64,000 nucleotides of DNA from Vicinamibacterales bacterium (GTDB lineage Bacteria; Acidobacteriota; Vicinamibacteria; Vicinamibacterales; 2-12-FULL-66-21), in NCBI GenBank assembly GCA_035495555.1, contig DATJFQ010000098.1, positions 12,325-76,324 of the forward strand. Reading direction: 5' to 3'. The position numbers and the translations under genes were made by a program. The notes beneath the pieces were generated by a model. That model was not told where the DNA came from. It did no database searches and saw nothing but the letters and a program-made list of their open reading frames with translations. Position 1 is the first letter of the stretch. Every line of letters starts with the position of its first letter. Below, piece after piece: positions 3,805 to 64,000 of this stretch.

Positions 3805-3847
<43 letters not shown>

Positions 3848-14194: not shown

Positions 14195-14273
14195 CAACTC
14201 CCAACGCCCAACGCCCAATATGAATTGCGAATTGAATTGGAAGTTGGGAATTGGGAATTGGGAATTGGGAATT
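14195..14273. repeat. inverted heptamer-repeat hairpin, TTGGGAR family (archetype)
   Basis: Left arm CAACTCC CAACGCC CAACGCC CAATAT. Right arm ..TTGGAAG(TTGGGAA)4TT. Located between the ABC-operon 3' end and the S9 peptidase start. Confidence 0.9.
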
Positions 14274-19663: not shown

Positions 19664-19705
19664 CGTCGTCCATCGTCCATCGTCCATCGTCCATCGTCCA
19701 TCGTT
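19664..19705. repeat. single-orientation tandem heptamer array CGTCGTC(CATCGTC)4CATCGTT
   Basis: Six contiguous 7-nt units immediately upstream of the GGAGG-ATG of the VPS10 gene. Confidence 0.9.
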
Positions 19706-29761: not shown

Positions 29762-29846
29762 GAAATTGCAGATTTCGGGTTGCAGATTGCGGATTGATTG
29801 CTAATTTCCTAATCAATCTCGAATCTGCAATCTACAATCTGCACTC
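29762..29846. repeat. inverted heptamer hairpin (TGCAGAT/TGCGGAT arm versus ATCTGCA/ATCTACA arm)
   Basis: GAAATTGCAGATTTCGGGTTGCAGATTGCGGATTGATTG...CAATCTCGAATCTGCAATCTACAATCTGCA. Lies in the divergent promoter region. Confidence 0.8.
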
Positions 29847-32800: not shown

Positions 32801-32948
32801 CCGCCTGCGCGTCCCTTATTTCGAGCGCTTCCCGCGACCGGAACCGGCGGTCATCGCGCGTGGCGACGGCGCGGCCGATGCCATGTCGTTCCAATTCATC
32901 AGCGCGTTGAACACGAGGTTGAATTCGCCGTGGTTCTGCCAGCGGTAG
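29856..32948 (+). CDS. M48-family zinc metallopeptidase fused to extra TM segments and a large C-terminal domain
   Basis: HEIAHL zinc motif with a downstream E..ESDRRA, plus HPSLARRI. Many hydrophobic helices. The last ~130 nt overlap the convergent M14 gene. Confidence 0.75.
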   Translation: MQYQPIAIVAVLVPALVPAVWWGVETHRLLRRPDDPLLPERLLAARRRAAVVLMFSLGIIAGVKTIALWWAVPFALVSRAAAGFRLRRRLYEETWGFWTMVSFATRLIVGVYGFHLTLLALPFIVSAAGRHVWLASGFAAAVLLAWAHWYSPLLRVLLRTAPVGDETLVRAFSDLVARAGVAAPRFESVDMRGGSLTNAIALAALNGSSVVFTSPLLERLQTDEIVAIAAHEIAHLEYYSPRRLWQYRLVQWSLILIGAFAFRFWPASLPAWEQAFVWFALIVAMLGWRARRRQQNETESDRRAVGLTGTPDALARGLTKLNTFARLPRRWDAAFERRATHPSLARRIRDIYAAAGVTPVTRDIAEVFVSEATATRVTFGPDELRWARDGAQHHLRYGALSELRVLARRGDTALLVAADRFGHRWEMPLDAADIGRAQSVLDTVDVHLVAHEPPPTISGAARWAAFLAALLALTSGQFGYALVALLTSVAASTRLLAATAVASAAAGVIAIRDGRVERGIGFLAIAAIFGLFTILYRRGVSNPLDRRALAMMTVATALALLLILDNGIGAYRLHQAARSVPDAAILLLATAAAIRVTARRRATRYAVLLLALAGLGLAFAGSSAYVNGFVNDPMLVRAPALEAVHITAAPLATMAVPFDPSDLTLSPDGTRVMLWRDEEEVTDQPGNDWTVQIGTVGGNLSRTKADDAVFLPGGEVLAVAFDAEGAELRKSVAGAAPSWRTRATGIVAGRLTVDGGGHHWTIVGWDGRQQPVKGTGTVGTTQIDVARWSAVPGIRYTNVASTGGIATVLEQHYRRSPVSWTLARWGLQLPYESHTRVWRLDGHGRTLVADSELQIACAAAVAPDAFTCAAYDGTRTRISTLAITSGRILPLAIVRGRFTPFVAHAAAGWLTGWRDRSPVAIRLDPLTAYDVPVNQGEYVRSIAGAGDRLAAIESNGDHSRIAVYALPTSAAGATHARAGRPARLRVPYFERFPRPEPAVIARGDGAADAMSFQFISALNTRLNSPWFCQR

Positions 32949-35884: not shown

Positions 35885-35903
35885 TGCCAGTCTCCTTCGC
35901 GTG

Positions 35904-35991
35904 CTAGTCCCCTGGAAACGTGATGCATCACACAAGTCCCGGGCGCCGCGCTCCGGGACTTGTGCAACGCGTCACGTTTCCAGGGGACTAG
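35904..35991. repeat. two-tier near-perfect palindrome in a divergent intergenic region
   Basis: Outer 20-bp arms CTAGTCCCCTGGAAACGTGA (35904-23) and TCACGTTTCCAGGGGACTAG (35972-91). Inner 12-bp arms CACAAGTCCCGG (35931-42) and CCGGGACTTGTG (35953-64). Confidence 0.9.
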
Positions 35992-35998
35992 AGCGCGC

Positions 35999-36865
35999 AT
36001 GATACCTGATTGGGCCGCCTGGCGCGTGCGGTTCGACGACTTCACCGCACGAAAGACGCGCGCAGCCGCGAGCGCGGCCCTGTTCCCGCTGGTCACGACC
36101 CTCGAAAACCCCGACGATCGATTGCAACCTGTCGGGAGCGAGTGGTCGCGGCGTCTCTTCAACGGCGCGTTCTACGTCGCGCACCCGCCGGACGCGCAGC
36201 GGCCGGCATGTTCGCTCGTCTTCGTGCAATCCGCCGATGGGAACACGGGCGCCGACGAGCCGGGGACGCTGGGCGGCGGCGAGACGGACAAGCACCTCAT
36301 TTACGAAGGACTTTCGCGGGTTGCCGCCGATGCCGTGCTGGCCGGCGCAGGTACGGTGCGCGGCACCGACGTCGTATTCTCAGTCTGGCATCCCGAGATC
36401 GTCGCGCTGCGCGCCTCGCTGGGGCTACCGCGCCATCCCGTCCAGATCATCGCCACGAATCGCGGGCTGGACTTCGACGGGCACCTCATGTTCAACGTGC
36501 CGGACCTGCGGGTCGTGCTCCTGACCGGGCCGTCTGTGCCCTCCACGATGCACGATCGGATTCGCGAACGGCCGTGGATTCTCGAGGTGCCGCTGCCTGC
36601 AGCCGGACTGCGCGATGCCTTCGAACGGCTGTACGCGATGGGTATCGGCCGCGTGTCGTGCGTCGGCGGCCGCACGCTCGCTCGTGAATTGCTGGCGGGC
36701 CGGCTCGTGGACGACGTCTATCTGACGACGGCGCCACAGCCTGGCGGACAGCCGGACACCGCGATCGCGCCGTGGCCGTGGCGCGGTCGCGTGGTGGTTC
36801 GAAAACACGGCACCGGGCCGGACGCCGGGGTGGTGTTCGAACAGGTGGTGCCGCACACGCCATGA
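35999..36865 (+). CDS. RibD C-terminal-domain/dihydrofolate-reductase-like reductase
   Basis: ATG at 35999. Pattern ..VFVQSADG......G.LGGGETDKHLIYEGLSRVAADAVLAGAGTVR and C-terminal ..VGGRTLARELLAGRLVDDVYLT.AP, typical of the RibD_C fold. Confidence 0.65.
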   Translation: MIPDWAAWRVRFDDFTARKTRAAASAALFPLVTTLENPDDRLQPVGSEWSRRLFNGAFYVAHPPDAQRPACSLVFVQSADGNTGADEPGTLGGGETDKHLIYEGLSRVAADAVLAGAGTVRGTDVVFSVWHPEIVALRASLGLPRHPVQIIATNRGLDFDGHLMFNVPDLRVVLLTGPSVPSTMHDRIRERPWILEVPLPAAGLRDAFERLYAMGIGRVSCVGGRTLARELLAGRLVDDVYLTTAPQPGGQPDTAIAPWPWRGRVVVRKHGTGPDAGVVFEQVVPHTP

Positions 36866-42199: not shown

Positions 42200-42282
42200 C
42201 CACTCCAACTCCCAATTCCCAACTCCCAATTCGCAATTAGATTCAGCAATCTTGGGAGTTGGGAGTTGGGAATTGGGAGTTC
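42200..42282. repeat. inverted heptamer hairpin, TTGGGAR family
   Basis: CCACTCCAACTCCCAATTCCCAACTCCCAATTCGCAATT ... AATCTTGGGAGTTGGGAGTTGGGAATTGGGAGTTC. Between convergent genes; the right arm encodes the C-terminal tail of the minus-strand gene. Confidence 0.9.
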
Positions 42283-43151
42283 TCCGCGCCCGGCGTCCGG
42301 GAGTTGATGCGCCGGGCGGCGAGCCCCTCTGCCCATCTCCCCGCAATCGGCAGCTTCCACGCGCGGCCTTTCCACGCCTGCCACATCAGCACGGCCCAGA
42401 GCACGAGCAGCGCCATCCACGCCACAGTGGCCACCCGTACCATGACCGCCAGGCCGTTCGCCGTGAAGAAGACGGACACCAGCGCGATCACATAGCAGAG
42501 CGCCACAAATACGGCAAAGGCGCCGAGCGCGATCACCGATTGCCACGCATGAAAGCGGACGAACGGCTGCTCCGGTTCCGCCACGAGCATAACGACGCCT
42601 GAGACCGGACCCGCGAGATAGGACAGGACGCCGGCCGTGCGCGGGCGAAGTCCTGTTGAAGAGTTGCGCGAATGCGCGCCCCTCGTGATGCGGTCGATCG
42701 GCTCCGTCCGTTGGGCAATCGCCGTATGTCGTGCGTCGGTCCACCGGATCTCGCCATCGACCCGCGGCAGCATGACGATGTGGAACGGCGACGGCGGCAT
42801 CGAGCCCGCTACACCGGACGCGCCCGCGATCGTCGCCTCCGGGTCGCCAGTACGCGGAAGTTGCATCGTCGCGTCCGGGTCGGATCCCGCCCGCCGCTCC
42901 TCCACGACCAGCCTCGTGCCGCCCTCCTCCTCGACGGCGCCGACGATGTCAATCGACCGCGGCGGCGTCTGGGTTCCGCCGAACGCGGCGGCCACCAACG
43001 ATACGGCGAAGTTGACGGCGGGGGTTTCACTCGCCGGTCCTGCGTGGGCGGCCCAGAGTGCGGCCCACTCCTCTGGTGTACGGACGACGACGCGGCGGCG
43101 CTCCGCGATATGGCTCGCGTTTCCTCTTGCGATCGTCGACAGCGTCCTCAT
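42243..43151 (-). CDS. fusion of a PrcB-like domain and a DUF4870-like 3-TM domain, hypothetical
   Basis: N-terminal ..TPEEWAALWAAHAG....VNFAVSLVAAAFGG resembles PrcB C-terminal domains. The C-terminal YLAGPVSGVVMLVAEPEQPFVRFHAWQS plus hydrophobic helices resembles DUF4870. Its ATG overlaps the VWA gene stop. Confidence 0.5.
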   Translation of the reverse strand: MRTLSTIARGNASHIAERRRVVVRTPEEWAALWAAHAGPASETPAVNFAVSLVAAAFGGTQTPPRSIDIVGAVEEEGGTRLVVEERRAGSDPDATMQLPRTGDPEATIAGASGVAGSMPPSPFHIVMLPRVDGEIRWTDARHTAIAQRTEPIDRITRGAHSRNSSTGLRPRTAGVLSYLAGPVSGVVMLVAEPEQPFVRFHAWQSVIALGAFAVFVALCYVIALVSVFFTANGLAVMVRVATVAWMALLVLWAVLMWQAWKGRAWKLPIAGRWAEGLAARRINSRTPGAENSQFPTPNSQDC

Positions 43152-45247
43152 CGGACGCGGAACTCGACTTCGCGCGAGACGCTGTCACCCTTGCCGACCA
43201 GCGACTTCGCCTCCACGCGAAGCACGTACCGCCCGGGTCCGAGGCCGCTCAGCGGGATGTTGCCCGTGTACCCGTAGCCGCCGGCCGAGCCTTTCAGCTC
43301 GTCGCTGCTTCGTTCATCGGCCCGACTGAAGACCACTTTGCCATCGTCGGCAAGGACGGAGGCGGTGATAGCGACGCGATGCGGCGTTTTCGGCAGGTTG
43401 TCGTAGACCTCCGCGAACATCGCGAGCTGGTCGTTCGATGGGAACTCGCGCATGGCCGTTGGCGGCCCCGGCAACACGTCCTTGAACTCGTTGCCCGAAG
43501 GATCGCCCGACGCCGTCGGCACGCGCGTGCCGGAGGCCGACGTGATGACGATGCCGCTCATCGTCAGCGGCGCCTTCGAGAAGTCCGGCGCTTCGAAATC
43601 GAAGAACACGGTTCCGAGCAGACCGCTGTTCGATTCCCGCGCGCCGATGCGAACCGAGTACTTGCCGGGCGGGATCTGCAGCTTGCGGACGACGCGGAAG
43701 CTTCCTTTCGAGACGACTTCGTGCGTCGCTGGCTTCAGGCGAAGGTTGAGGACGTCCTGCGCGCCGTCCTGAATCTTGCCTTTCTGATCGGCGGCATACA
43801 TCGAGATCTCGAGGTCGTCGGTGAAGAGGCCTTCCGGCGACTGCTTGAATGGCAATCTGGTGCCGTCGATTTCGAGCGCGATCGCCACCGCATCCTTGGG
43901 GGCGGCGCCACGGAAGGCCGCGGCGAAGGCGTGCACCGTGAGGCCGCTCACCCCGACAGGACTGTCCATCGCCTCCCGGAGTTCCGGAGAGCCCTTCCCT
44001 TCCGTCGGTTTCGCAGCAGCCGCTTTGCCCTTTGGTGCGTAGTATCCCTTCCGCGCGCGGACTCGCAACCCGGGTTTCAGCACCTTGATTTGAACGCTGC
44101 GGAACTTCCCGTCGCGGTTCTCGTTCGTCGGGTAGTAGCCGAGCACGTAGTAGCTGCTGTTGTCGTCGAGAATCCGGCCGAAGGCGTTCGTGAAGTCGTT
44201 CTGGTTGAGGACGGCGAATCCCCCCGTCTGATCCGAGAGCACGCGGAGATTGTCGTGCTGCACGCGCATCTCTTCCATCAGTTGGGTCGAACTGATCGAG
44301 TTGTCCTGAGGGAACGACTGGATCTCGATGAGATCCTCCGTGCCGGACGTCACGCCGCGGGGATCGACGCTGTAGATGCTGACGTTGCCGCGCGTGGCAG
44401 CGGCAATCGTCTGCTGCATCGCGTCCTGCACCTCGGTCGCGTACTTGCCCGCGAACGGGTTGGTCGTGTCGTAATCGATCCCTTCGCTGAAGAACACGAC
44501 GGCCTTGCGGCGGCCGTGAATGCCGTCGAGATAGGTGGCGAGCGCCTTCATCGTGCTCAGCGCGTTGCGCGCCTTCGTGTATCGCTCGAGCTCGTTGGAG
44601 TCAGCCGCCGCCGTGCTGTCGCCCGCGATGCCGCCGGAGTTGTTGCGGTAGTAATCGTCGAGCGCGGCGGTGGTCGCCGAGTCGGCCTTCTGGCCGATCG
44701 CGGTGTCGACCGCGCGAAGCGCGAGCGTGCGATTGCTGGTGAAGTCCTGCACGCCGGAGGAAAATCCGGAGGTATTGATGACGGCCACGAGGTCGTTCGC
44801 CCCGACATAGCGGCTGATGAACAGCCGCGCCGCCGCGCGAACGCGCGCCGTGCGGCTGGGAGCCGTATGCAGATCATCGACGACGATGACGAAGAGCCGC
44901 CCTTCGAACGGACGCGCGTTGGTCGAAACATCCGGTGGGATCGCGGTCTTCGCAAAGAGCGGCGGATCGACGTGCTCGACCGGGATGTCGACGGTGGAGA
45001 ACACGGTCAGCGTCTGCGGCTTGCCGTTCTCCACGATCTGGAAGTCGTCTTTCGTGAGGTTGCGGACGAAGTTGCCCTGGGCATCGGTCACCTGGGCATC
45101 GATCTCGACGTAGTTGACGTCGACCTTGAACGTCAGCGGCGGCTGTCCACCGGCGGGCGGCTGCGGCGGAGCGGGCTGCTGGCCTGCAGGCGCTCCCGCC
45201 AGCAGGAGCGTGAACACGGCGGCTGCAAAACTAGTACGCATCTTCAT
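43148..45247 (-). CDS. VWA-domain protein of the 'VWFA-related acidobacterial' family
   Basis: Signal peptide, then PPLTFKVDVNYVEIDAQVTDAQGNFVRNLTKDDFQIVENGKPQ (family N-terminal signature) and a VWA core (FVIVVDDLH). Confidence 0.85.
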   Translation of the reverse strand: MKMRTSFAAAVFTLLLAGAPAGQQPAPPQPPAGGQPPLTFKVDVNYVEIDAQVTDAQGNFVRNLTKDDFQIVENGKPQTLTVFSTVDIPVEHVDPPLFAKTAIPPDVSTNARPFEGRLFVIVVDDLHTAPSRTARVRAAARLFISRYVGANDLVAVINTSGFSSGVQDFTSNRTLALRAVDTAIGQKADSATTAALDDYYRNNSGGIAGDSTAAADSNELERYTKARNALSTMKALATYLDGIHGRRKAVVFFSEGIDYDTTNPFAGKYATEVQDAMQQTIAAATRGNVSIYSVDPRGVTSGTEDLIEIQSFPQDNSISSTQLMEEMRVQHDNLRVLSDQTGGFAVLNQNDFTNAFGRILDDNSSYYVLGYYPTNENRDGKFRSVQIKVLKPGLRVRARKGYYAPKGKAAAAKPTEGKGSPELREAMDSPVGVSGLTVHAFAAAFRGAAPKDAVAIALEIDGTRLPFKQSPEGLFTDDLEISMYAADQKGKIQDGAQDVLNLRLKPATHEVVSKGSFRVVRKLQIPPGKYSVRIGARESNSGLLGTVFFDFEAPDFSKAPLTMSGIVITSASGTRVPTASGDPSGNEFKDVLPGPPTAMREFPSNDQLAMFAEVYDNLPKTPHRVAITASVLADDGKVVFSRADERSSDELKGSAGGYGYTGNIPLSGLGPGRYVLRVEAKSLVGKGDSVSREVEFRVR

Positions 45248-48200: not shown

Positions 48201-48349
48201 CAACTCCCAACACCCAATTCCCAATTCCCAAGGGTTCGAACTCCCAAGTCCCGGTCCCGGGCTTGGGAGTTTTTGTATCCGCTGGAAATGGGCGGTTAGG
48301 ATTTATTCGGTTCGGGAGCTGGGAATTGGGAGTTGGGAGTTGGGAGTTG
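48201..48349. repeat. nested TTGGGAR-family element: outer inverted arms enclosing a terminator-like hairpin
   Basis: Outer arms CAACTCCCAACACCCAATTCCCAATTCCCAA (48201-31) and TTCGGGAGCTGGGAATTGGGAGTTGGGAGTTGGGAGTTG (48311-49). Confidence 0.85.
48239..48275 (+). terminator. rho-independent terminator candidate for htrA
   Basis: 10-bp perfect stem AACTCCCAAG/CTTGGGAGTT with inner CCCG/CGGG pairing, followed by TTTTTG. Confidence 0.6.
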
Positions 48350-48388
48350 ACACGTTTCAGCTTGTACGGCTGGCTCGGCCTCGCCATC

Positions 48389-50769: not shown

Positions 50770-50839
50770 GCACCGAGCACCAAGCACCCCGCACCGAGCA
50801 CGAAGCACCGCGCACGAAGCACCGCGCGCGAAGCGCGCC
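50770..50839. repeat. single-orientation tandem heptamer array (GCACCGA GCACCAA GCACCCC GCACCGA GCACGAA GCACCGC GCACGAA GCACCGC GCGCGAA GCGCGCC)
   Basis: Ten contiguous 7-nt units read directly between the two genes. Confidence 0.9.
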
Positions 50840-54098: not shown

Positions 54099-55522
54099 GC
54101 AAGGTAGGCTTCGTCTCCCTCGGTTGTCCAAAGAACCTCGTCGACGGCGAGGTAATGCTGGGGCTCGCGCAGCAGGCGGGTCATGAGATCACGGCGTCGG
54201 CACAGGACGCCGACGTGATTGTCGTGAACACGTGCGCCTTCATCGACAAGGCGAAGCAGGAGTCGATCGACACGATCCTCGAAATGGCGCAGCAGAAGCG
54301 CGACGGCTCCTGCAAACGCCTCGTTGTCACGGGGTGCCTGGCCGAGCGCTATCGCGACGAACTGAAGAAGGAGATCGGCGAAATCGACGCCGTCCTCGGG
54401 ACGGGCGAAGTCGAAGGGATCATCGAAGCGCTCAGTCCGAGGGACGATGCTCGAGGTTCGATGGACGATGGCCGTCGCCCGATGACCTTTCACAAGAGGA
54501 GCATCGCCACTCGATCATCGAGCATCGAACATCGAACATCGCCCATCGACCATCGATCACTACCCACATACATCTACGACGCGGACACGCCGCGCGTCAT
54601 CACCACGCCGAAGCACTTCGCGTACGTCAAAATCGGCGAAGGCTGCGACTACACCTGCGCCTTCTGCATCATCCCGACCCTCCGCGGCAAGTACCGCAGT
54701 CGCACCGCAGACTCCATCGTCCGCGAGGCGCAATCACTGGCGGAGCGCGGCGTCAGGGAACTTCTGCTGATTTCTCAGGACACGACGTTCTATGGGATCG
54801 ATCGCGGTGAACGCGGAGCACTCGCGCGCCTGCTGCGGCGGCTGAATGCCATCGACGGACTGGCGTGGATTCGGCTCCTCTATCTCTATCCGACCACCAT
54901 CACCGACGATGTCCTGGACGCGATGGCGGAGTGCGAGAAGGTGTGCCGCTATGTCGACCTGCCGCTGCAGCACGCCTCTGCCGCGGTGCTGAAGCGGATG
55001 CGGCGTCCCGGCAACCGGAAGACGTATGACGCGCTGCTCTCCCGGATCCGCGCACGCGTCCCCGGCGTCACATTGAGGACGACGTTCATCGTCGGCTTTC
55101 CCGGCGAGACCGAAACCGACTTCGGCGAGCTCGAGTCGTTCGTCGAGGACACGCGGTTCGACCACATCGGCGTGTTCACCTATTCCCACGAGGAAGGCAC
55201 GCGGGCCTTTGCGGCGGCAGACGACGTAGCCGCGCCCAGCAAACGGGCACGCCGCAACCGGCTGATGAAGCGGCAGCAGCGGATCGTGAACACGGCGCAC
55301 GAAAGCCGGATCGGTTCGCAGGTGCGGGTGCTGGTCGACGGCCCGTCCGCCGAGCATGAGTTGGTGCTCCAAGGCCGCCTGGAAGGGCAGGCGCCCGACA
55401 TTGATCCGGTGGTTTATCTCACCGATTGCGATCCTGCTGAGGTTGCGCCCGGGGACCTCATCAATGCACGCCTGCTCGCCTCCAAAGGCTACGACCTCGT
55501 CGCCGCGCCGCTGCGGCCCTGA
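54095..55522 (+). CDS. rimO: ribosomal protein S12 methylthiotransferase
   Basis: GTG overlaps the asnS stop (GTGA). [21 protein letters not shown], radical-SAM [16 protein letters not shown]-like C-terminus. Contains a repeat-derived insert. Confidence 0.9.
54443..54558. repeat. inverted heptamer hairpin (CGATG arm / CATCG arm) in-frame inside rimO
   Basis: GACGATGCTCGAGGTTCGATGGACGATGGCCGTCGCCCGATGACC ... GCATCGCCACTCGATCATCGAGCATCGAACATCGAACATCGCCCATCGACCATCGATC. Confidence 0.8.
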
Positions 55523-57483: not shown

Positions 57484-60303
57484 TTGGCAACAGTTCGGAT
57501 TTATAGAGTCGCGGAGCTGCTCAACACCTCGAGCCAGGAAGTCATGGCCCTTCTGAAGAAGGAGCATGGCATCGAGGTGAAGAGCGCATCGAGCACGATC
57601 GAAGAAGTCGTCGCGCGCGAGTTCGTCGCGAAGCAGGCGCGCCAGCGCGGGCTCAAGGTGCCGTCGAGCGCATCCTTCGCCGACACGCCGACGGCCTCGC
57701 GCGGCACGCAGCGCCGCCAGGGCGGGCGCACGGCGGAACCGCCCAAACCGGCCGCCCCCCCGATGCCGGCGCCCCGACTGGTGAAGACGGTACGGCCCGC
57801 CGCGCCGCCCGCGGAACCGGCAGCTCCGGAAGCTGCTCCTGCGGCTTCAGCGCCGGCGCCTGTCCCGGTCCCTCCGGAGCCGACGCCCGCTCCTGTCGCC
57901 ATCGAACCGCCTCCGCCTGTAGCGCCGTCGCAGCCTGAACCTGAGCCGGTACAGGCAGCGGCGCCCCCGGCCCCCGTGGCAGAAGAACCCGTCGCTCCGT
58001 CGGCGCCTCCGGTCGAAGCTCCGGCCGCGGCTGCGGAAGCGGAAATGCCCGCACCGGTGAAGGCGGCTCCGGCTCCTCCGCCGCCGCCCGCACCTGCGCC
58101 TCCGTCACGTCCCGTCGTCCCGCCGCCGACAGGCCGCGTCGTCCCGCCGACGATCCGCCTGCGCGTCGAGGATCCGCGGACCGGCCAGGCTCCGCCTGCG
58201 CCGCCGCGCCGCCCGATCCTCGTGCGTCCGCCGCAGTCGACGGCTCCGCTGCCTGCGCCAACCGGAAATCTCAGCCGACCGGCCGGTCAGCGTCCCGGCC
58301 AGCCGGCCGCACCGCGTCCCGGAGGCCCGCGTCCCGCGTATTCGCCGCGCCCGCAGGGTCCCGTCGGTGGCCCCAGGCCGCTGCCGTCTCAGCCCGTTCG
58401 TCCGTCGCAGCCGCAGCGTCCGCAAGTGCCGGGCTACCGGCCGCCCGCGCCGCGGCCGTCCTTTCAGAGGACTGGCGGCCCACGCCGCGACCACCCGCGT
58501 GCGGCCATGCAGGCGCCGTCAGCGGCGGCACCGCCGCCGATCACGCGGACGATTACGCTGGCGGAAGGCATGACCGTGTCGGATCTCGCGTCGAAGCTCG
58601 ACGTGAAAGCGAACGATGTCCTCAAGAAACTGTTCGAGAAGCGCATGATGATGCGCATCAACAGCACCCTCGATACGGACACGGCGTCGATGATCGCGCG
58701 CGAGTTCGGCGCGGACGTCAAGATGCACACCTTCGAGGAGGAGCTCCTCCAGGTCGAAGCGGAGGACGTGAACCCCGAGGACGTGATTACGCGCGCGCCG
58801 GTCGTCACCGTCATGGGTCACGTCGACCACGGCAAGACGACGCTGCTCGACGCGATTCGCGAAACGCGCGTGGCCGAGCGTGAAGCCGGCGGTATCACCC
58901 AGCACATCGGCGCCTATGCCGTGCAGGTGAACGACCGCAACGTCGTGTTCCTCGACACGCCGGGTCACGAGGCGTTCACGATGATGCGCGCCCGAGGCGC
59001 CCGCGTGACCGACGTGGTCGTCCTCGTCGTCGCCGCCGACGACGGCGTCATGCCGCAGACGCGCGAAGCGATCGACCACGCACGCGCCGCGAACGTCCCG
59101 ATCGTCGTGGCGATCAACAAGATAGACAAGCCGAACGCGAACCCCGATCGGGTGAAAAAGGAGCTTGCCGATCTCGGACTGGTCCCGGAGGACTGGGGCG
59201 GCGACACGGTCACGGTGCCGGTCTCGGCGAAGAAGCGCGAGAACATCCCGAGCCTGCTCGAGATGATCCTCATCGTCACCGAACTCAGCGAACTGAAGGC
59301 CAACCCGAAGCGCAACGCGTCGGGCACGGTGCTCGAAGCCAAGCTGGACAAGGGCCGCGGCCCTGTCGCGACGATCCTCGTGCAGGATGGCACGCTGCAC
59401 GTCGGCGATACGTTCATCGCCGGCACGATCGTCGGCAAGGTGCGCGCGCTCATCGATGACAGCGGAAGGTCCATTAAATCCGCCGGCCCGGCGACGCCGG
59501 TTGAAGTCCTGGGCCTCGGAGGCTTGCCGCTGCCCGGCGACGTGTTCCAGGCGCTCGCCGATGCGGCGAAGGCGCGCCAGATTGCGCTCTATCGTCAGAC
59601 GCAGGCGAAAGACAAGGCGCTCGGAGCCAAGGGCGCTCGGCTCACGCTCGAGTCGCTGCAGCAGCAAATCGCCGAGGGCGGCATGAAGGAACTGCCGCTC
59701 ATCATCAAGGCCGACGTGCAGGGCTCGGCCGAAGTGCTGGCCGACACGCTGACGAAGCTGTCGGACGACCACGTCAAGATCCGGATCATCCACAGCGGCG
59801 TCGGCGCCATCAACGAATCCGACGTCCTGCTGGCAACCGCATCGAACGCCATCGTCATCGGATTCAACGTGCGTCCTGACCGCAACGCGGCCGACGTCGC
59901 CGACCACGACAAGGTCGACATCCGGCTCCACTCCGTCATCTACAACGTGGTGGACGAGATGAAGAAGGCCATGACGGGGCTTCTGGAACCGACGCTGAAA
60001 GAAGTGCGCATCGGCAGCGCCGCGGTGCGCGAGACATTCAAGGTTCCGAAGTTCGGCACGATCGCTGGGTGCATGGTCACCGATGGCCGGATCACACGGT
60101 CGGGCGACACGCAGGCCCGCCTGCTCCGCGACAACGTCGTGATCCACGAAGGCCGCATCGGCTCTCTGCGCCGCTTCAAAGACGACGTGTCCGAAGTCAA
60201 GGCGGGCTTCGAGTGCGGTATCGGCTTCGAGAAGTACAACGACATCAAGGTCGGCGACATCATCGAAGCATTCGTGGTCGAGCGCGTCGCGGCGACCGTC
60301 TGA
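57484..60303 (+). CDS. infB: translation initiation factor IF-2
   Basis: TTG at 57484 lies 7 nt after GGAG. IF2-N (RIYRVAELLNTSSQEVMALLK), a Pro/Ala-rich linker, G domain (VMGHVDHGKTTLLD, DTPGHEAF, NKID) and C-terminal domains. Confidence 0.95.
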   Translation: MATVRIYRVAELLNTSSQEVMALLKKEHGIEVKSASSTIEEVVAREFVAKQARQRGLKVPSSASFADTPTASRGTQRRQGGRTAEPPKPAAPPMPAPRLVKTVRPAAPPAEPAAPEAAPAASAPAPVPVPPEPTPAPVAIEPPPPVAPSQPEPEPVQAAAPPAPVAEEPVAPSAPPVEAPAAAAEAEMPAPVKAAPAPPPPPAPAPPSRPVVPPPTGRVVPPTIRLRVEDPRTGQAPPAPPRRPILVRPPQSTAPLPAPTGNLSRPAGQRPGQPAAPRPGGPRPAYSPRPQGPVGGPRPLPSQPVRPSQPQRPQVPGYRPPAPRPSFQRTGGPRRDHPRAAMQAPSAAAPPPITRTITLAEGMTVSDLASKLDVKANDVLKKLFEKRMMMRINSTLDTDTASMIAREFGADVKMHTFEEELLQVEAEDVNPEDVITRAPVVTVMGHVDHGKTTLLDAIRETRVAEREAGGITQHIGAYAVQVNDRNVVFLDTPGHEAFTMMRARGARVTDVVVLVVAADDGVMPQTREAIDHARAANVPIVVAINKIDKPNANPDRVKKELADLGLVPEDWGGDTVTVPVSAKKRENIPSLLEMILIVTELSELKANPKRNASGTVLEAKLDKGRGPVATILVQDGTLHVGDTFIAGTIVGKVRALIDDSGRSIKSAGPATPVEVLGLGGLPLPGDVFQALADAAKARQIALYRQTQAKDKALGAKGARLTLESLQQQIAEGGMKELPLIIKADVQGSAEVLADTLTKLSDDHVKIRIIHSGVGAINESDVLLATASNAIVIGFNVRPDRNAADVADHDKVDIRLHSVIYNVVDEMKKAMTGLLEPTLKEVRIGSAAVRETFKVPKFGTIAGCMVTDGRITRSGDTQARLLRDNVVIHEGRIGSLRRFKDDVSEVKAGFECGIGFEKYNDIKVGDIIEAFVVERVAATV

Positions 60304-60312
60304 CCTTCGCGT

Positions 60313-60346
60313 GGAATTGGGAGTTGGGAATTGGGAGTTGGGAGTT
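60313..60346. repeat. single-arm TTGGGAR heptamer array (GGAATTGGGAGTTGGGAATTGGGAGTTGGGAGTT)
   Basis: Four GGG runs spaced by 4 nt, in the infB-rbfA gap. The last GGGAG lies 6 nt before the rbfA GTG. Confidence 0.85.
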
Positions 60347-60351
60347 AAGAA

Positions 60352-60768
60352 GTGACCTCCAACAGACCCGAGCGTATCGGAGAAGCGGTCCGCGACGAGA
60401 TCTCCCTGATGCTCGCGCGTGAGGTCCACGATCCCGGCATCGGGTTCGTGACGCTGACGCGGGTGAAAGTCACGCCGGACCTGCAGATCGCGCGCGTCTA
60501 CTACACGACGCTGGGGGACGAGAAGGCCCAGCGCGAGACGGCAAAGGCGCTTCGCCGGGCCGCGCCGTTCCTGCGCCGGCAGCTCGGCCAGAAAATCCGG
60601 CTCCGGCGCGTTCCCGAAATCGAGTTCCACTACGACGAATCAATCGCGCACGCCGATCGCGTGGAACGGATCCTTCACGATCTCGAAGAAGAGCGGGCGG
60701 CGCGCGCCGCCGAGACCCGCGACACAGCCGGCGACGCCTTACGCGATGACCATCCCGACGACGAGTAG
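60352..60768 (+). CDS. rbfA: ribosome-binding factor A
   Basis: R.ERIGEAVRDEIS.ML..EV.DP..GFVT.T.V.V..DL..A.VYY...G; RR.P.I.F..D. Confidence 0.9.
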   Translation: MTSNRPERIGEAVRDEISLMLAREVHDPGIGFVTLTRVKVTPDLQIARVYYTTLGDEKAQRETAKALRRAAPFLRRQLGQKIRLRRVPEIEFHYDESIAHADRVERILHDLEEERAARAAETRDTAGDALRDDHPDDE

Positions 60769-61747
60769 CCATACAGTCAACGAGATCCGCGACGCGATTC
60801 TTGCCCGCCGCCGATTCCTGATCACCTCCCACGCAAGACCCGACGGCGATTCCATCGGATCTCAGATGGCAATGGCCTATGCGCTCGAGGCGCTCGGCAA
60901 GGAAGTCCGCCTGGTCAACGCCGACCCCGCGCCCGAGCATTATCTGGATTTTCCCGGCGTCGAGCGGATCGAGATCGCTCGCCAGCTGCTCGAGCGCGAC
61001 GCCGACGCCCTCATCGTGATGGAATCGAGCGATCTCAACCGCACCGGCGTCGCGGGCCTCGAAGGGCGCTTCACGATCAATATCGACCACCACCAGGGCA
61101 ACACGGCGTACGGCGATCTGAACTGGCTCGACGAATCCGCCGCGGCCTGCGGCGAGCTGGTGTTCGAGCTGATCGGGTCGCTCGGGATCCCGCTCACGGT
61201 CGAGATCGCGACGCACATCTACCTGGCCATCCTGACCGACACCGGCTCGTTCCACCACTCCAACATCACGCCGAAAACGTTCGACATCTGCCGCCAGACG
61301 GTCGCGGCAGGCGTGAACCCGGCGGCCATGGCCCGGCGCGTGTTCGACAGCAACAGCTTCGGAAAATTGAAGTTGATCGGCGCGCTGCTCGACGAGATGG
61401 ACCTCCTGGACGATGGGCGGCTGGCCGTGCTGTACCTGAACGACGACATCCTCAACGCGACGAACACGACCTACAACGACACGGAAGGCCTCATCAACCT
61501 GCCCCTGACCGCACGGGAGATCCAGGCCGTCGCTTTCTTCAAGGTCGGAGCCGACGGCGACATCCGCGTCAGCCTCCGCTCGAAGTACGACGTCGATGTC
61601 CGGGCCGTTGCGAGTCTCCATGGCGGGGGCGGACACAAGAATGCGGCAGGGTTCACGGTCAGGGGACCGCTTCCCGACGTGCGCCCGGTGATCATCCGCG
61701 AAATCGAACAGGCCATCGCTGCGGGGATGCAAACGAGGCCTGAGTAA
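60746..61747 (+). CDS. nrnA: DHH/DHHA1 phosphoesterase (NrnA-type oligoribonuclease / pAp phosphatase)
   Basis: ITSHARPDGDSIGS, IDHH, TDTG.F, GGGHKNAAG. Sits in the conserved position after rbfA and overlaps rbfA by 23 nt. Confidence 0.85.
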   Translation: MTIPTTSSHTVNEIRDAILARRRFLITSHARPDGDSIGSQMAMAYALEALGKEVRLVNADPAPEHYLDFPGVERIEIARQLLERDADALIVMESSDLNRTGVAGLEGRFTINIDHHQGNTAYGDLNWLDESAAACGELVFELIGSLGIPLTVEIATHIYLAILTDTGSFHHSNITPKTFDICRQTVAAGVNPAAMARRVFDSNSFGKLKLIGALLDEMDLLDDGRLAVLYLNDDILNATNTTYNDTEGLINLPLTAREIQAVAFFKVGADGDIRVSLRSKYDVDVRAVASLHGGGGHKNAAGFTVRGPLPDVRPVIIREIEQAIAAGMQTRPE

Positions 61748-61829
61748 ATTCCCAATTCCCAACGCCCAAACGAGCCTGGTTTGGACGTTCGATTTGGGAG
61801 TTGGAGTTGGGAGTTGGAAGTTGGGAATT
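61746..61829. repeat. inverted heptamer hairpin, TTGGGAR family
   Basis: AAATTCCCAATTCCCAACGCCCAAACG ... CGATTTGGGAGTTGGAGTTGGGAGTTGGAAGTTGGGAATT. Spans the nrnA stop to the truB start. Confidence 0.85.
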
Positions 61830-62765
61830 GACGGCGCCCTGATTGTCGATAAGCCGTCTGGACCCACCTCTCACGACGTCGTCGCCGTCGCGAGGCGCGC
61901 GCTGAAGATTCGCCAGATCGGGCACACGGGGACGCTCGACCCGCTCGCGACAGGCGTGCTCGTCCTGCTGGTGGGCCGCGCCACACGCCTCTCGCAATTC
62001 ATCGTCCACGACCGGAAAGAGTACGTCGCGGAGATCCGCCTGGGCGTCGCCACGGCGACTTACGATGCGGAGGCGCTCCACGATAATTCCCAACTCCCAA
62101 CTCCCAACTCCCAAATCGATCAATCTGGCCAGCCCCGAACAAATCGAATTGGGAATTGGGAATTGGGAATTGGGAGTTTGGACGAGGTCCTCGATGATTT
62201 CCGCGGGACCTTTCTCCAATCGCCTCCGCCATTCTCCGCAAAGAAAGTCGACGGCCGGCGCGCATACGAGCAGGCCCGGAGGGCCCGGCCGGTCGAAATG
62301 CAGCCTGTTCGGGTCACCGTACACGAACTGGAGCGGCTTCAGTCGCCGGACCCCAGGCTGATTCGGCTTCGGATGGTGGTGAGCGCCGGGTTTTACGTTC
62401 GCTCTTTGGCCCACGTTCTCGGGCAGCGGCTCGGCTGCGGCGCGCACCTCGAGACGTTGCGGCGGACGCGATCCGGGCCCTTTTCGATCGACGACAGCAT
62501 CACGCTCGACACGCTCGTCAGCGGTGCGCCGACCCTCGTGCCGATGAACGGCCTGCTTCAGCACATCCCCGCCGTCACCCTTTCGGACGAGGGTCTGCGG
62601 CGGGCTTCGCGCGGGAACGTCATCAGTCCTGGGCACATTACCAACTCCGCCGTCGAAAAGACCGAGGATGGTCGGATCCGGTTGCTCTCGCCTGATGGCG
62701 AGCTCGTCGCGATTGGGGTCCGGGACGCCCGCGCGTTTTTGCACCCGCAAGTTGTGTTGGTGTAA
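61821..62765 (+). CDS. truB: tRNA pseudouridine(55) synthase (start uncertain: TTG 61821 or TTG 61794, both inside the repeat arm)
   Basis: IVDKPSGPTSHDVV, GHTGTLDPLATGVL (catalytic Asp), Y.AEIRLG..T.T.DAE, F.G...Q.PP.FSA.K, LGCGAHL..LRRT. Contains a repeat insert. Confidence 0.9.
   Translation: MGIDGALIVDKPSGPTSHDVVAVARRALKIRQIGHTGTLDPLATGVLVLLVGRATRLSQFIVHDRKEYVAEIRLGVATATYDAEALHDNSQLPTPNSQIDQSGQPRTNRIGNWELGIGSLDEVLDDFRGTFLQSPPPFSAKKVDGRRAYEQARRARPVEMQPVRVTVHELERLQSPDPRLIRLRMVVSAGFYVRSLAHVLGQRLGCGAHLETLRRTRSGPFSIDDSITLDTLVSGAPTLVPMNGLLQHIPAVTLSDEGLRRASRGNVISPGHITNSAVEKTEDGRIRLLSPDGELVAIGVRDARAFLHPQVVLV
62085..62178. repeat. TTGGGAR-family inverted hairpin in-frame inside truB
   Basis: AATTCCC(AACTCCC)3AAATCGAT - 22-nt loop - ATCGAATT(GGGAATT)3GGGAGTT. 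About 31 of 36 arm positions are complementary. Confidence 0.9.
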
Positions 62766-62855
62766 AATGTTGACTCGTTTGCAAATAGGTCAATTACGGC
62801 GGTCTGGTTGCGGGATGCGATTCCCCTCGACTGGGCCGTACGTGGAGGTACAGCA

Positions 62856-63122
62856 GTGCTGAGCAAGGACCGCAAAACGGAAGTCATTGGCAGTTATCGT
62901 ACTCACGACGGCGACACCGGTTCCCCCGAAGTGCAGGTCGCGCTCCTCAGCGAGCGCATCAGCTACCTGACGGAGCATTTCAAGAGCCACGCGAAGGATC
63001 ATCACTCCCGCAGGGGTCTGCTGAAACTCGTCGGCCAGCGGCGCCGCCTCCTGGACTACCTGAAACGGAAGGACTCGGACCGATACGCAGATCTGATCAA
63101 GCGGCTCGGCATCCGCAAGTAG
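62856..63122 (+). CDS. rpsO: 30S ribosomal protein S15
   Basis: GTG at 62856 lies 7 nt after [41 protein letters not shown]...D..RY..LI..LG.R. Confidence 0.95.
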
Positions 63123-63255
63123 AATCTGCTGGAGGCGCCCGATCCGCAGGTCGGGCGACGGCCGGTCCGGGAGACCAGAAGATCGGGCTCCCCTGGCTCA
63201 GACAACCCGCGCTCCACTCTAGAAGCTGGCGCAGCTCATTTCTGAAAGAAGTCAC
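63123..63255 (+). promoter_or_regulatory. rpsO-pnp intergenic leader with stem-loops
   Basis: Stem-loop CGCCCGA-N8-TCGGGCG at 63136-63157, plus GGGAG/CTCCC pairing downstream. In E. coli the equivalent leader carries the RNase III hairpin used for pnp autoregulation. Confidence 0.35.
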
Positions 63256-64000
63256 ATGCACACACGCGACATCTCCGTTGGCGGCCGCACGATCTCGATC
63301 GAGACCGGACGGCTCGCCAAACAGGCTGACGGGTCCGTCCTGGTTCGTTCCGGCGACACGATCGTGCTCGTCACCGCCTGCGCGGCATCGAATCCGCGCG
63401 AAGGCATCGATTTCCTGCCGTTGACCGTCGACTACCGCGAATACACATACGCATCCGGCCGCATTCCCGGCGGGTTCTTCAAACGCGAAGGCAAACCCAG
63501 CGAGAAGGAAGTGCTCACGAGCCGGCTGATCGATCGGCCCATCCGGCCGCTCTTTGCGCAGGGGTGGCGGCATGAAACGCAGATCATCGCGCTCTTGATC
63601 TCGGCGGATGCGGAGAACGACTCGGACGTGCTCGCAATCACCGGCGCGTCTGCCGCGCTCGCGCTCTCGAGCATTCCCTTCACGCGCACGATTGCGGGCG
63701 TCCGGATCGGGCACGTGAACGGCGAGTTCGTCATCAACCCCACGTTCGAGGAGCGGCGCAACAGCCGCCTCGATCTCATCGTCGCGGGCACGAAGGACGC
63801 GATTGTGATGGTGGAGGCCGGCGCCAAAGAGGTCTCCGAAGAGGAGATGGTCGAAGCCCTCGAGCGCGCGCACGCCGCGATTAGGGAGATCGTCGCCGGC
63901 ATCGACGCCCTCGCGAAAGAGGCCGGAAAGACGAAGACCCAGGTCTCGGTCAAGGAAATCAGCAAGGAGTTCTACCGCGAGGTCGAAGAGAAGGCTTACG
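63256..64000 (+). CDS. pnp: polyribonucleotide nucleotidyltransferase (PNPase), 3' end beyond the window; absent from the ORF track
   Basis: My own translation from ATG 63256: [41 protein letters not shown]...[47 protein letters not shown]... The frame stays open to position 64000. Confidence 0.95.

What the first reader, a model, noticed from the sequence alone, without database searches (positions are those of the whole stretch)
62085..62178. Hairpin-forming heptamer-repeat element sits in-frame inside the essential-type gene truB
The two arms, AATTCCC(AACTCCC)3AAATCGAT and ATCGAATT(GGGAATT)3GGGAGTT, are reverse complements at about 31 of 36 positions, with a 22-nt loop. They belong to the same family as the intergenic copies at 14195, 42200, 48201 and 61746.

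The truB frame stays open through the element (..YDAEALHDNSQLPTPNSQIDQSGQPRTNRIGNWELGIGSLDEVLDDFRG..). The segment between the conserved T.T.DAE and L..LD.FRG blocks is 34 aa here, versus about 14 aa in E. coli TruB as I recall it.

In the sense strand, three consecutive units have C opposite A. In antisense RNA these would be G-U wobbles, so the hairpin is weaker in the mRNA than in antisense RNA. The right arm also fits the G3N4G3N4G3N4G3 quadruplex consensus on the mRNA strand.

The closest known precedent is Rickettsia palindromic elements inserted in-frame in ORFs. I know of no description for Acidobacteriota.
Basis: partly seen in the sequence, partly recalled or inferred. Interest (0 to 1): 0.85.

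Follow-up and report, generated by a model that had tools for sequence, protein, structure and literature searches.

The report
In-frame heptamer hairpin repeat in truB
A 94-base hairpin built from 7-base repeats, a kind that normally sits just after genes in this soil acidobacterium, lies in frame inside the tRNA-modifying gene truB at a loop where relatives carry other repeats; it is most likely tolerated repeat DNA, not a new function.

Summary
Window 62085-62178 is (AAYTCCC)4, a 38-nt spacer, then (GGGARTT)4. It is in frame in an intact truB (61821-62765) and folds strongly (-51 kcal/mol sense, -67 antisense). It belongs to a dispersed family with six loci in the window. A metagenome scan found 75 more hairpins, and 47 of them lie within 70 nt of a stop codon.

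The closest described kind is the Xanthomonas GGGAATC heptamer arrays in convergent pairs, not Rickettsia RPEs. RPEs are still the right precedent for in-frame tolerance. The encoded 31 aa are modelled as a disordered loop, and the rest of the model matches E. coli TruB (TM 0.81-0.84).

The new point is that this codon position is shared repeat ground. The spacing between two catalytic-domain motifs is 73-78 aa in 75 diverse bacteria but 74-122 aa in the 120 nearest relatives. At least five unrelated repeat families occupy the site. Genomes 97-98% identical elsewhere differ in a ~400-nt truB patch that contains it.

The strand asymmetry and the G-quadruplex idea are not general. I read the element as a tolerated in-frame copy of an intergenic repeat, kept uniform by slippage or conversion.

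The parts
61821..62765 (+). truB coding sequence (314 aa, TTG start) that hosts the element
   Evidence: ORF list. The product is identical to P0001. Pfam TruB_N 1.1e-40 and TruB_C_2 4.2e-12. The catalytic-motif residues are invariant in alignment A1. The AF2 model matches 1k8w with TM 0.81/0.84.
62085..62112 (+). C-rich left arm: AATTCCC followed by three AACTCCC
   Evidence: TRF period 7, 3.9 copies, 100% match
62113..62150 (+). Spacer with an inner stem (AAATCGA / TCGAATT) and a terminal loop
   Evidence: fold; sequence
62151..62178 (+). G-rich right arm: three GGGAATT followed by GGGAGTT. It fits the G3N4 x4 pattern.
   Evidence: quadruplex test
61746..61832 (+). Sister element at the DHH-phosphoesterase/truB junction. 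Its left arm overlaps the upstream stop codon. Its right arm contains GGGAG (61809-61813) and the truB TTG start (61821).
   Evidence: (I5). Its arms are more complementary to the arms of the truB-internal copy (96% and 91%) than to each other (85%).
60312..60350 (+). G-rich (GGGARTT)5 array between infB and rbfA. It ends 2 nt before the rbfA GTG start. No C-rich partner is present.
14195..14273 (+). Intergenic family copy (hairpin)
42203..42283 (+). Family copy. The minus-strand ORF 42243-43184 reads into it, giving the C-terminus ..ENSQFPTPNSQDC*.
   Evidence: (I3, 93%)
48201..48352 (+). Intergenic family copy with a long spacer that holds a second small hairpin
   Evidence: I4

Best explanation
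The truB insert is a copy of this genome's dispersed heptamer-array palindrome, (AAYTCCC)n-spacer-(GGGARTT)n.

The family's normal home is the few nucleotides after a stop codon. There the transcript would carry a long stem-loop, and the G-rich arm often doubles as ribosome-binding site and start codon for the next gene.

One copy entered a dispensable surface loop of TruB. This loop lies between the strand ending in TYDAE and the helix LDxVLxxFRG. The entry was by insertion, or by conversion from another copy, in an ancestor of this clade.

The copy replaced about 12 aa of the ancestral loop. It is read through by the ribosome as a roughly 31-aa disordered loop. It survives for three reasons:
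- The unit has no stop codon on either strand.
- The length is a multiple of three.
- The loop is outside the conserved catalytic core.

The loop now behaves like a piece of intergenic spacer embedded in a gene. It gains, loses and exchanges the same repeat families as true spacers do. It stays close to the family consensus through array slippage, conversion or re-insertion, not through selection on the peptide. Alleles are passed between lineages by homologous recombination.

Shown: the anatomy, family membership, open frame, usual location after stop codons, the disordered-loop model, occupancy of the site by several families, nucleotide-level uniformity and mosaicism.

Inferred: translation of the insert, lack of benefit, and the homogenising mechanism.
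For: Family and location:
- There are 28 pattern matches against 0 expected, at six loci in the window.
- A metagenome scan found 75 hairpins. All but one are on contigs of 60-70% G+C.
- 47 of the 75 lie within 70 nt of a confidently called stop codon, and 16 sit between convergent genes.
- Only 4 of the 75 are inside real genes: 3 in truB and 1 in an IMS-family polymerase gene, L114.

Tolerance:
- Residues 79-117 have pLDDT below 50, while the rest of the model is a confident TruB fold.
- The catalytic-motif residues are invariant.
- The element is open in 5 of 6 frames, and its units are stop-free on both strands.
- Array indels between relatives come in 21-nt steps, for example P0002 against P0005.

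Not selection on the peptide:
- Four-fold degenerate sites are only 42% (window vs L002) and 63% (window vs L083) identical, yet the arms are still near-perfect consensus units.
- The palindrome in the other clade is identical at synonymous positions across genomes whose four-fold sites are 34-44% identical.
- In L166 the truB copy shares a genome-specific loop variant (TAAA) and an extra half-repeat with the intergenic nusA/infB copy of the same genome.

Spacer-like behaviour:
- Relatives carry a heptamer hairpin, a 24-nt palindrome pair, 11-mer arrays, or direct CGATGNN or GAGGCGC heptamers at the same codon position.
- The true intergenic junctions of the same operon show the same turnover of unit types between genomes.
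- Some hairpins at this site have decayed or lost an arm (P0002, P0008, P0016).

Stability: three assemblies give an identical element.
Against: - No expression or protein data exist, so translation of the insert is inferred.
- Near-consensus arms at saturated synonymous divergence could equally reflect selection for the structure.
- Every relative examined at DNA level has a period-7 or period-11 array in truB, while PNPase, the DHH protein, RbfA, S15, AsnS, RimP and NusA have none in the same loci. A MiaB-like gene is the only other host found. One uniquely permissive loop is a somewhat strained explanation for that concentration.
- No mobilising enzyme and no target-site duplication were found.
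- The two neighbouring elements can pair across truB codons 1-85, and the thermodynamic optimum uses that pairing. This leaves room for a regulatory role.
Confidence: 0.62

Rival explanations
1. The hairpin, or more generally a structured or repetitive nucleic-acid segment, is selected at this position of truB. It would act as an RNA or DNA element: a translational pause, an RNase III-type processing or stability site inside the nusA-infB-rbfA-truB-rpsO-pnp transcript, or a switch that pairs with the upstream element to hide the truB ribosome-binding site and start codon.
For: - The arms stay near consensus although synonymous sites are saturated.
- The site is occupied in 95 of 118 relatives.
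- The upstream right arm, which holds the Shine-Dalgarno sequence and TTG start, is 96% complementary to the internal left arm. The minimum-energy fold of 61735-62195 (-221.7 kcal/mol, z -7.5) uses this long-range pairing.
- Strong folds are seen in several families: z -5 to -9 for the heptamer, palindrome and 11-mer types.
Against: - Lineages with direct CGATGNN or GAGGCGC arrays have no significant fold at the site: z -0.6 in L089 and -1.4 in L090.
- Several relatives have lost one arm.
- There is no covariation at the variable unit position across 73 hairpins.
- There is no preference for U.G over C.A in the mRNA sense.
- L002 has no upstream partner element, and in L083 it is decayed.
- The cross-pairing pattern has about a 1 in 8 chance if each arm is internally homogenised.
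- Genome-specific variants shared with intergenic copies point to conversion, not site-specific constraint.
Confidence: 0.15
2. The repeats arose where they are. Replication slippage and template switching in an unconstrained loop produced them, with no transfer from other loci. Resemblance to the intergenic arrays would only reflect a shared mutational bias towards 7-nt units.
For: - Heptamer arrays of many different units are everywhere in these genomes.
- A general slippage bias for 7-nt units has been proposed in the literature (PMC4692102).
- Indels of 21 nt occur within the coding array.
Against: - The same unit pair, in the same C-arm-then-G-arm layout, recurs at unlinked loci in the window.
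- A complex 24-nt palindrome pair, with a genome-specific loop variant and an extra half-repeat, is shared between truB and an intergenic site in L166. This cannot arise twice by slippage.
Confidence: 0.08
3. The G-rich right arm acts as an RNA or DNA G-quadruplex that regulates truB.
For: - Four G3 tracts are spaced by 4 nt. The isolated arm prefers a quadruplex in ViennaRNA (-12.7 against -3.6 kcal/mol).
- Related GGGAATC arrays form quadruplexes in vitro (PMC4692102).
Against: - With the C-rich arm present, the hairpin wins (-51.1 kcal/mol; the fold is unchanged with G4 energies on).
- Other families at the same site have no G tracts.
Confidence: 0.04
4. truB here is a decaying pseudogene or an assembly artefact, or the segment is removed from the RNA or protein (as by an intron or intein) before the enzyme functions.
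For: None beyond the oddity of a long hairpin inside a gene.
Against: - The frame is intact and the motifs are conserved.
- Three independent assemblies give the identical sequence.
- Dozens of orthologues keep the frame through inserts of different length.
- 31 aa is far too short for an intein, and Pfam finds only TruB domains.
- Rfam gives no intron or other family above threshold.
Confidence: 0.03

Closest known systems
G-rich heptamer simple-sequence repeats of Xanthomonas (GGGAATC) and Nostoc (GGGGAYT) (Rehm et al. 2015, PMC4692102)
   Same: - The unit GGGA(A/G)T(T/C) is nearly the same, and arrays typically have about four units.
- In Xanthomonas, 70-75 arrays form convergent pairs able to make stem-loops.
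- They lie mostly between co-oriented or convergent genes, on average 28 nt from the upstream ORF.
- 7-11% overlap ORFs, and lengths vary between close species.
- Here 47 of 75 hairpins lie within 70 nt of a stop codon, and 4 of 75 are inside genes.
   Different: - The last base of the unit differs, and the phylum is different (Acidobacteriota, Vicinamibacterales-like).
- Here the paired C-arm/G-arm hairpin is the rule in the soil contigs.
- That paper does not report an in-frame copy in a conserved housekeeping gene, or a shared intragenic site used by several repeat families.
Rickettsia palindromic elements (RPE; Ogata et al. 2000, as reviewed in PMC2229807)
   Same: - They are dispersed palindromic repeats with long predicted stem-loops.
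- They are found in frame inside conserved protein genes (19 reading frames).
- One host enzyme (Gmk) is translated with the insert and remains active.
- They are interpreted as neutral or slightly harmful passengers.
   Different: - RPEs are 105-146 bp complex sequences with terminal inverted repeats, not tandem heptamer arrays.
- There is no sequence relation to the element here.
- RPE insertions are not reported as several families competing for one codon position.
REP/REPIN elements mobilised by RAYT transposases
   Same: - They are hairpin-forming inverted doublets placed after genes, kept uniform within a genome and vertically persistent.
- The 24-nt palindrome pair seen in relatives' truB and at nusA/infB in L166 looks like a REPIN.
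   Different: - No RAYT gene was looked for or found.
- The GTAG/CGTC tag typical of REP superfamilies (PMC3733652) is absent from the heptamer element.
- The arms here are simple-sequence arrays.
Cyanobacterial short tandemly repeated repetitive (STRR) heptamers and TAACTGA arrays (PMC4679880)
   Same: - They are 7-nt units in direct arrays near gene boundaries.
- The very unit AACTCCC/GGGAATT occurs as direct arrays in Symploca, Moorena and Nostoc.
- Some arrays lie just upstream of start codons.
   Different: - They are mostly single direct arrays, not hairpin pairs.
- The genomes are low in G+C.
- No housekeeping-gene hot spot has been described.
Bacterial MITEs fused in frame to ORFs (Correia, ERIC, YPAL; PMC2229807)
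   Same: They are small, structured and non-autonomous, are sometimes co-translated with host ORFs, and have RNA stem-loops that can affect neighbouring transcripts.
   Different: MITEs have defined terminal inverted repeats and usually a TA target duplication. None is seen here.

Membership tests
G-rich heptamer SSR pairs (Xanthomonas/Nostoc type) | Tandem array of at least 2 units of a GGGNNTN-type heptamer | tested here: met
   Four GGGARTT units at 62151-62178 and four AAYTCCC units at 62085-62112. TRF reports period 7 with 100% match.
G-rich heptamer SSR pairs (Xanthomonas/Nostoc type) | Two arrays in convergent orientation that can form a stem-loop | tested here: met
   Arms are 87-88% complementary. 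The fold is -51.1 kcal/mol, z -6.2.
G-rich heptamer SSR pairs (Xanthomonas/Nostoc type) | Located between genes, close to the 3' end of the upstream ORF | tested here: not met
   This copy is inside truB. The family as a whole meets the feature: 47 of 75 hairpins lie within 70 nt of a stop codon, and the window copies at 14195, 48201, 60312 and 61746 are intergenic.
G-rich heptamer SSR pairs (Xanthomonas/Nostoc type) | G-quadruplex formation by the G-rich array | tested here: inconclusive
   Prediction only. The isolated arm prefers a quadruplex; the full element prefers the hairpin.
Rickettsia palindromic elements | In-frame insertion in a conserved protein gene with the reading frame kept | tested here: met
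Rickettsia palindromic elements | Complex 105-146 bp consensus with terminal inverted repeats, specific to Rickettsia | tested here: not met
   The element is 94 nt and made of tandem heptamers. The RPE description is taken from PMC2229807. No RPE sequence library was available for a direct comparison.
Rickettsia palindromic elements | Insert lies on the protein surface away from the active site, and the host protein stays functional | tested here: inconclusive
   AF2 models residues 79-117 as a low-confidence loop, and the rest of the fold is intact. Distance to the bound tRNA was not measured. Activity cannot be tested here.
REP/REPIN-RAYT | Conserved GTAG or CGTC tetranucleotide at one end of the palindrome | tested here: not met
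   62085-62178 contains none of GTAG, CTAC, CGTC or GACG (sequence). The criterion is from PMC3733652.
REP/REPIN-RAYT | A cognate single-copy RAYT (Y1 transposase) gene in the genome | not tested
   Only 64 kb of the genome is in hand. The window's ORFs were not screened.
MITE | Terminal inverted repeats plus a target-site duplication | tested here: not met
   The arms act as inverted repeats, but no direct duplication flanks the copies at 62085, 14195 or 61746 on inspection.
Intrinsic terminator | G+C-rich hairpin followed by a T run | tested here: not met
   No terminator-like site falls at any element in 60000-63300.
Phase-variable contingency repeat | Unit-number polymorphism between close strains that shifts the frame | tested here: not met
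   Three assemblies about 99% identical carry the same element with no indel. Between species, indels are 21 nt, which keeps the frame.
TruB pseudouridine-55 synthase (host gene) | TruB_N and C-terminal domains, the GHxGTLDP catalytic motif and the TruB fold | tested here: met
   Pfam hits, invariant residues, TM 0.81/0.84 to 1k8w.
Known RNA families (Rfam 15) | A score at or above a family's gathering threshold | tested here: not met
   Only sub-threshold hits to generic miRNA-precursor hairpins were found: 35 bits or less against thresholds of 81-102.

The most novel reading that the evidence does not exclude
The middle of truB in this Vicinamibacterales-like group is a repeat-bounded exchangeable module. 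Two codon positions about 100 codons apart act as landing or retention sites for at least five unrelated repeat families. The roughly 400-nt segment between them, which encodes the thumb-loop region, circulates as deeply divergent allele classes among genomes that are otherwise 97-98% identical.

This would imply one of three things:
- Hairpins or arrays provoke breakage and gap repair with foreign DNA.
- Heterologous inserts block recombination and so preserve ancient alleles.
- There is balancing or diversifying selection on this part of a housekeeping tRNA-modification enzyme.
Probability: 0.25. Interest if true: 0.7.

Novelty: new variant of a known kind. Interest (0 to 1): 0.55.

Why it matters
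The finding extends protein-coding palindromic repeats from Rickettsia and a few other bacteria to Acidobacteriota, an abundant soil phylum.

It also links two literatures that have stayed apart: the unexplained excess of 7-nt repeats in large bacterial genomes, and selfish DNA inside genes.

The shared truB site is a natural experiment. Several repeat families sit at one codon position in a conserved enzyme, with empty outgroups and many metagenomic alleles. On such a site one can ask how these repeats move, how they are kept uniform, and whether they drive recombination.

Practically, such inserts inflate and distort protein alignments and gene calls in metagenome-assembled genomes. Examples here are starts called inside G-rich arms, C-termini that read into elements, and short hypothetical ORFs made only of repeat.

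Tried and rejected
1. A search of the protein database with a consensus repeat peptide, meant to find other host proteins, returned only short hypothetical ORFs. It did not even return the TruBs. It therefore says nothing about in-frame frequency, but it showed the same unit in cyanobacteria.
It was used only as an outgroup baseline.
3. I tested whether the truB-internal copy is an inverted duplicate of the upstream copy. The alignment score is only slightly better in reverse (40.5 against 32.5), and other copies score as well. The idea was dropped.
4. I tested for covariation between arms at the Y/R position. There is none: 0.61 observed against 0.58 expected.
5. I tested for a preference for wobble pairs in the mRNA sense. 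It is not significant.
6. Rfam gave nothing above threshold.
7. The terminator and promoter scan found nothing at the elements.
8. I looked for a common target sequence at the left junction of the different families and found none.
9. An exact-string literature search for the repeat found only unrelated Drosophila primers and constructs.
Full report
**1. What is there**

The sequence at 62085-62178 reads AATTCCC, three AACTCCC, a 38-nt spacer, three GGGAATT and GGGAGTT.
- The spacer starts AAATCGA and ends TCGAATT.
- The repeat finder gives arms of 30 nt at 87% and 26 nt at 88% complementarity.
- Tandem Repeats Finder gives two perfect period-7 arrays.
- As RNA the sense strand folds at -51.1 kcal/mol (z -6.2), the antisense strand at -66.7 (z -8.3), and single-stranded DNA at -27.2 (z -5.6).

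The pattern GGGARTTGGGARTTGGGA with up to two mismatches occurs 28 times in the window and never in 100 shuffles. The matches fall at six loci:
- 14195-14273
- 42203-42283
- 48201-48352
- 60312-50 (a G-rich array only)
- 61746-61832
- 62085-62178

**2. The host gene**

The host gene is an intact truB.
- The 314-aa product of 61821-62765 is identical to a called protein on a 91.6-kb contig. It hits TruB_N and TruB_C_2.
- The neighbours are infB, rbfA, a DHH/DHHA1 phosphoesterase, then truB, rpsO and pnp. Related loci show the same order.
- The nearest named relatives are Vicinamibacterales MAG proteins.
- The element codes for residues 89-119, NSQLPTPNSQIDQSGQPRTNRIGNWELGIGS. It is open in five of six frames.
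- Two other soil metagenome assemblies, about 99% identical to the window here, carry exactly the same element with no indel. This excludes an assembly artefact. It also shows that the array is not hypervariable between close strains.

**3. It is an insertion relative to other bacteria**
- The spacing from the catalytic GHxGTLD motif to FxGxxxQxP is 73-78 aa in 75 TruBs from many phyla, and 73-74 aa in 70 of them.
- It is 93 aa in the window and 74-122 aa in the 120 closest relatives.
- Other Acidobacteriota have 24-25 aa between TYDA and FxG with no repeat. The window has 43.
- The gain is about 20 aa although the element codes for 31, so roughly 12 aa of the ancestral loop are gone.
- One relative, P0104, keeps the ancestral LAMPEAFTLDA segment with a palindrome inserted just upstream. 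This places the entry point right after TYDAxSLxx.
- An AlphaFold2 model (mean pLDDT 79) has residues 79-117 below 50, with no secondary structure assigned between residues 86 and 119. The rest matches E. coli TruB bound to RNA (1k8w) with TM 0.81/0.84.

**4. What the family normally does with itself**

A scan of public metagenome contigs for the paired-arm pattern returned 75 loci. All but one have 60-70% G+C.
- In 47 loci a confidently called gene ends within 70 nt of the matched core, usually within 2-35 nt. In 16 loci genes converge on the hairpin from both sides.
- Only four of the 75 are inside real genes. Three are truB: two are the window's own species and one is the P0013 lineage. One is an impB/mucB/samB-family polymerase gene, where the element again reads ..NSQLPTPNSQ..GNWELGVG...

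In the window, G-rich arms supply translation signals for the next gene.
- rbfA's GTG at 60352 follows GGGAGTT.
- truB's TTG at 61821 lies inside GTTGGGAATT, with GGGAG eight bases upstream.
- A minus-strand ORF ends inside the copy at 42203 with ..ENSQFPTPNSQDC*.

No T-run terminators and no Rfam family fit the elements.

**5. Comparison with known kinds**

The closest described kind is the G-rich heptamer arrays of Xanthomonas (GGGAATC) and Nostoc (PMC4692102).
- Arrays typically have about four units.
- In Xanthomonas, 70-75 arrays form convergent pairs that can make stem-loops.
- They lie on average 28 nt from the upstream ORF, and 7-11% overlap ORFs.
- Array length varies between close species.

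The same unit occurs as direct arrays in Symploca, Moorena and Nostoc.

Rickettsia palindromic elements are the right precedent for in-frame tolerance. They occur in 19 reading frames, and Gmk with its insert is translated and active (PMC2229807). Structurally they differ, because RPEs are complex 105-146 bp sequences.

I found no paper that describes these repeats in Acidobacteriota.

**6. The truB site is shared ground**

Of 118 relatives, 95 carry a recognisable repeat-derived peptide at this codon position. The DNA of eleven lineages shows what lies beneath:

| Repeat at the site | Peptide signature | Loci |
|---|---|---|
| Heptamer hairpin | NSQLPTP..GNWELGI | window, L002, L083 |
| Pair of 24-nt palindromes CTTCCGCCTGAAGGCGGAAGCCAC | FRLKAEAT...GFRLQAE | L001, L085, L166, partly L088 |
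| 11-mer arrays GGGGTCAGACY with inverted copies | not noted | L086, L087 |
| Direct CGATGNN heptamers | not noted | L089 |
| Direct GAGGCGC heptamers | not noted | L090 |

The last two families have no significant fold (z -0.6 and -1.4). A hairpin is therefore not the common denominator.

These families are dispersed.
- The palindrome pair also sits between nusA and infB in L166.
- CGATG-type arrays sit at four intergenic loci in the window.
- GAGGCGC arrays occur in a MiaB-like gene of L090 and in L106 and L151.

Heptamer arrays of many units mark almost every junction of this operon, and the unit differs between genomes.

The units seen in frame are stop-free on both strands. Units with a stop on one strand were seen only between genes, although the sample is small.

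**7. The arms are kept uniform at nucleotide level**
- Four-fold degenerate sites are 42% identical between the window and L002, and 63% between the window and L083. The arms in all three are still near-perfect consensus units.
- The palindrome arms are identical, synonymous positions included, in genomes whose four-fold sites are 34-44% identical.
- In L166 the truB copy and the intergenic copy share a loop variant (TAAA instead of TGAA) and an extra GGCGGAAGCCAC half-repeat that other genomes lack.

This points to conversion or re-insertion within a genome, rather than to selection on the peptide or on this site alone.

Against selection for pairing:
- The variable Y/R position does not co-vary between arms across 73 hairpins: Watson-Crick 0.61 observed, 0.58 expected.
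- In 30 elements oriented by their upstream gene, U.G against C.A is 18 to 12, p = 0.36.
- Other window copies show the opposite strand bias or none.

**8. Turnover goes with recombination**

TruBs that are 89-92% identical outside the insert can carry different families. The same family also occurs in TruBs only 61% identical.

At DNA level two pairs show the same picture.
- L085 and L087 are 93-100% identical (mostly 97-100%) in 60-nt windows across the DHH gene and both ends of truB. From the left edge of the insert to just past a second variable site about 100 codons downstream they are only 42-83% identical.
- L090 and L167 show the same pattern, plus a diverged intergenic array.

Among pairs with at least 93% flank identity, the central segment is 87-100% identical when the family is the same and 63-77% identical when it differs. 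The family therefore travels with a roughly 400-nt allele.

Two readings remain open: import of diverged alleles, or ancient alleles shielded from recombination by the heterologous inserts.

Recombination patches are common in these populations in any case. Seventeen of the 19 differences between the window and L092 lie in 205 nt of the DHH gene.

**9. Mechanism**

I commit to the following, with confidence about 0.6.
- The element is a tolerated, translated, in-frame copy of an intergenic heptamer palindrome.
- It sits in a dispensable loop that now evolves like spacer DNA under only two constraints: no stop codon, and a length divisible by three.
- The 21-nt indel between P0002 and P0005, equal to three units, fits this reading.

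The main rival is a selected RNA or DNA structure, possibly pairing with the upstream element across truB codons 1-85. It is weakened by the structure-free families and by the decayed copies, but it is not excluded. The concentration of arrays in truB, compared with neighbouring genes, is not fully explained.

The quadruplex idea is weak, because the hairpin outcompetes it.

**10. Verdict**

- The element is a new variant of a known kind.
- It is not the RPE-like singularity it first seemed.
- The shared, multi-family, recombining truB site is a real and apparently undescribed feature that deserves follow-up.

Noticed in passing
window 35890-36005: An inverted repeat with 53-nt arms (83% complementary) and a 10-nt loop lies between divergent ORFs 32816-35971(-) and 35924-36865(+). 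It is unrelated to the heptamer family.
   Followed up: no
window 3799-3845, 11204-11312, 19666-19704, 24304-24370, 29765-29843, 50770-50834, 54438-54555: Heptamer arrays of other units are present: CGATGTT, CAACTAC/GTAGTTG, TCGTCCA, CCGCACC, ATTGCAG/CTGCAAT, GCACCRA and a CGATG type. Three are hairpin pairs, between convergent or divergent genes. 22 of 73 TRF rows have period 7.
   Followed up: partly
window 42203-42283 and minus-strand ORF 42243-43184: The ORF reads into the element, so its last residues (..ENSQFPTPNSQDC*) and its stop codon are repeat-derived.
   Followed up: partly
window 60312-60352 and 61794-61832: G-rich arms provide the ribosome-binding sequence and start codon. rbfA's GTG lies 2 nt after the array. 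truB's TTG lies inside GTTGGGAATT, with GGGAG 8 nt upstream. Gene callers in relatives sometimes start inside the arm, as in the N-terminus MLGVGNLWELGVG.. of P0116.
   Followed up: partly
window 61747-61832 versus 62085-62178: The two neighbouring elements are more complementary to each other (96% over 27 nt, and 91% over 23 nt) than each is to itself (85-87%). The minimum-energy fold of 61735-62195 loops out truB codons 1-85. The pattern has roughly a 1 in 8 chance if each arm is internally homogenised.
   Followed up: partly
L090 2607-2732; L166 2802-2852 (MiaB-like gene): In-frame heptamer arrays (GCGATGC, CGCGCCT, GGACCTC) sit in the linker before the PTYIYDA motif in two genomes and are absent in L086. 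This is a second intragenic repeat site.
   Followed up: partly
truB second site (between ELExL and LLRLR), e.g. L086 10544-10571, L089 2460-2540, L090 10530-10556; L003 about 4070-4130: Some relatives carry further in-frame arrays at a second truB position (P0102, P0116, P0107). In L003 an array lies between RRAL and GHTG.
   Followed up: partly
L085 2640-3040 versus L087; L090 10211-10622 versus L167: Genomes 97-98% identical in the flanks differ by a roughly 400-nt patch in the middle of truB (42-87% identity), bounded by the two repeat sites.
   Followed up: yes
window 60802-61006 versus L092: 17 of the 19 differences between two assemblies about 99% identical cluster in 205 nt of the DHH gene. 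This looks like a recombination patch unrelated to repeats.
   Followed up: no
L083 1450-1640 (rpsO-pnp spacer); L084 7930-8030: Tandem arrays of about 19 nt (GAAGGTCGGCCCCCATT type) and GGGGTCAGACCCC-type palindromes occur in spacers of close relatives.
   Followed up: no
proteins P0121-P0212: Dozens of annotated 'hypothetical proteins' of 35-90 aa in public databases consist only of translated heptamer arrays (GNWELGI or NSQLPTP repeats). Many come from filamentous cyanobacteria and are probable gene-calling artefacts.
   Followed up: partly
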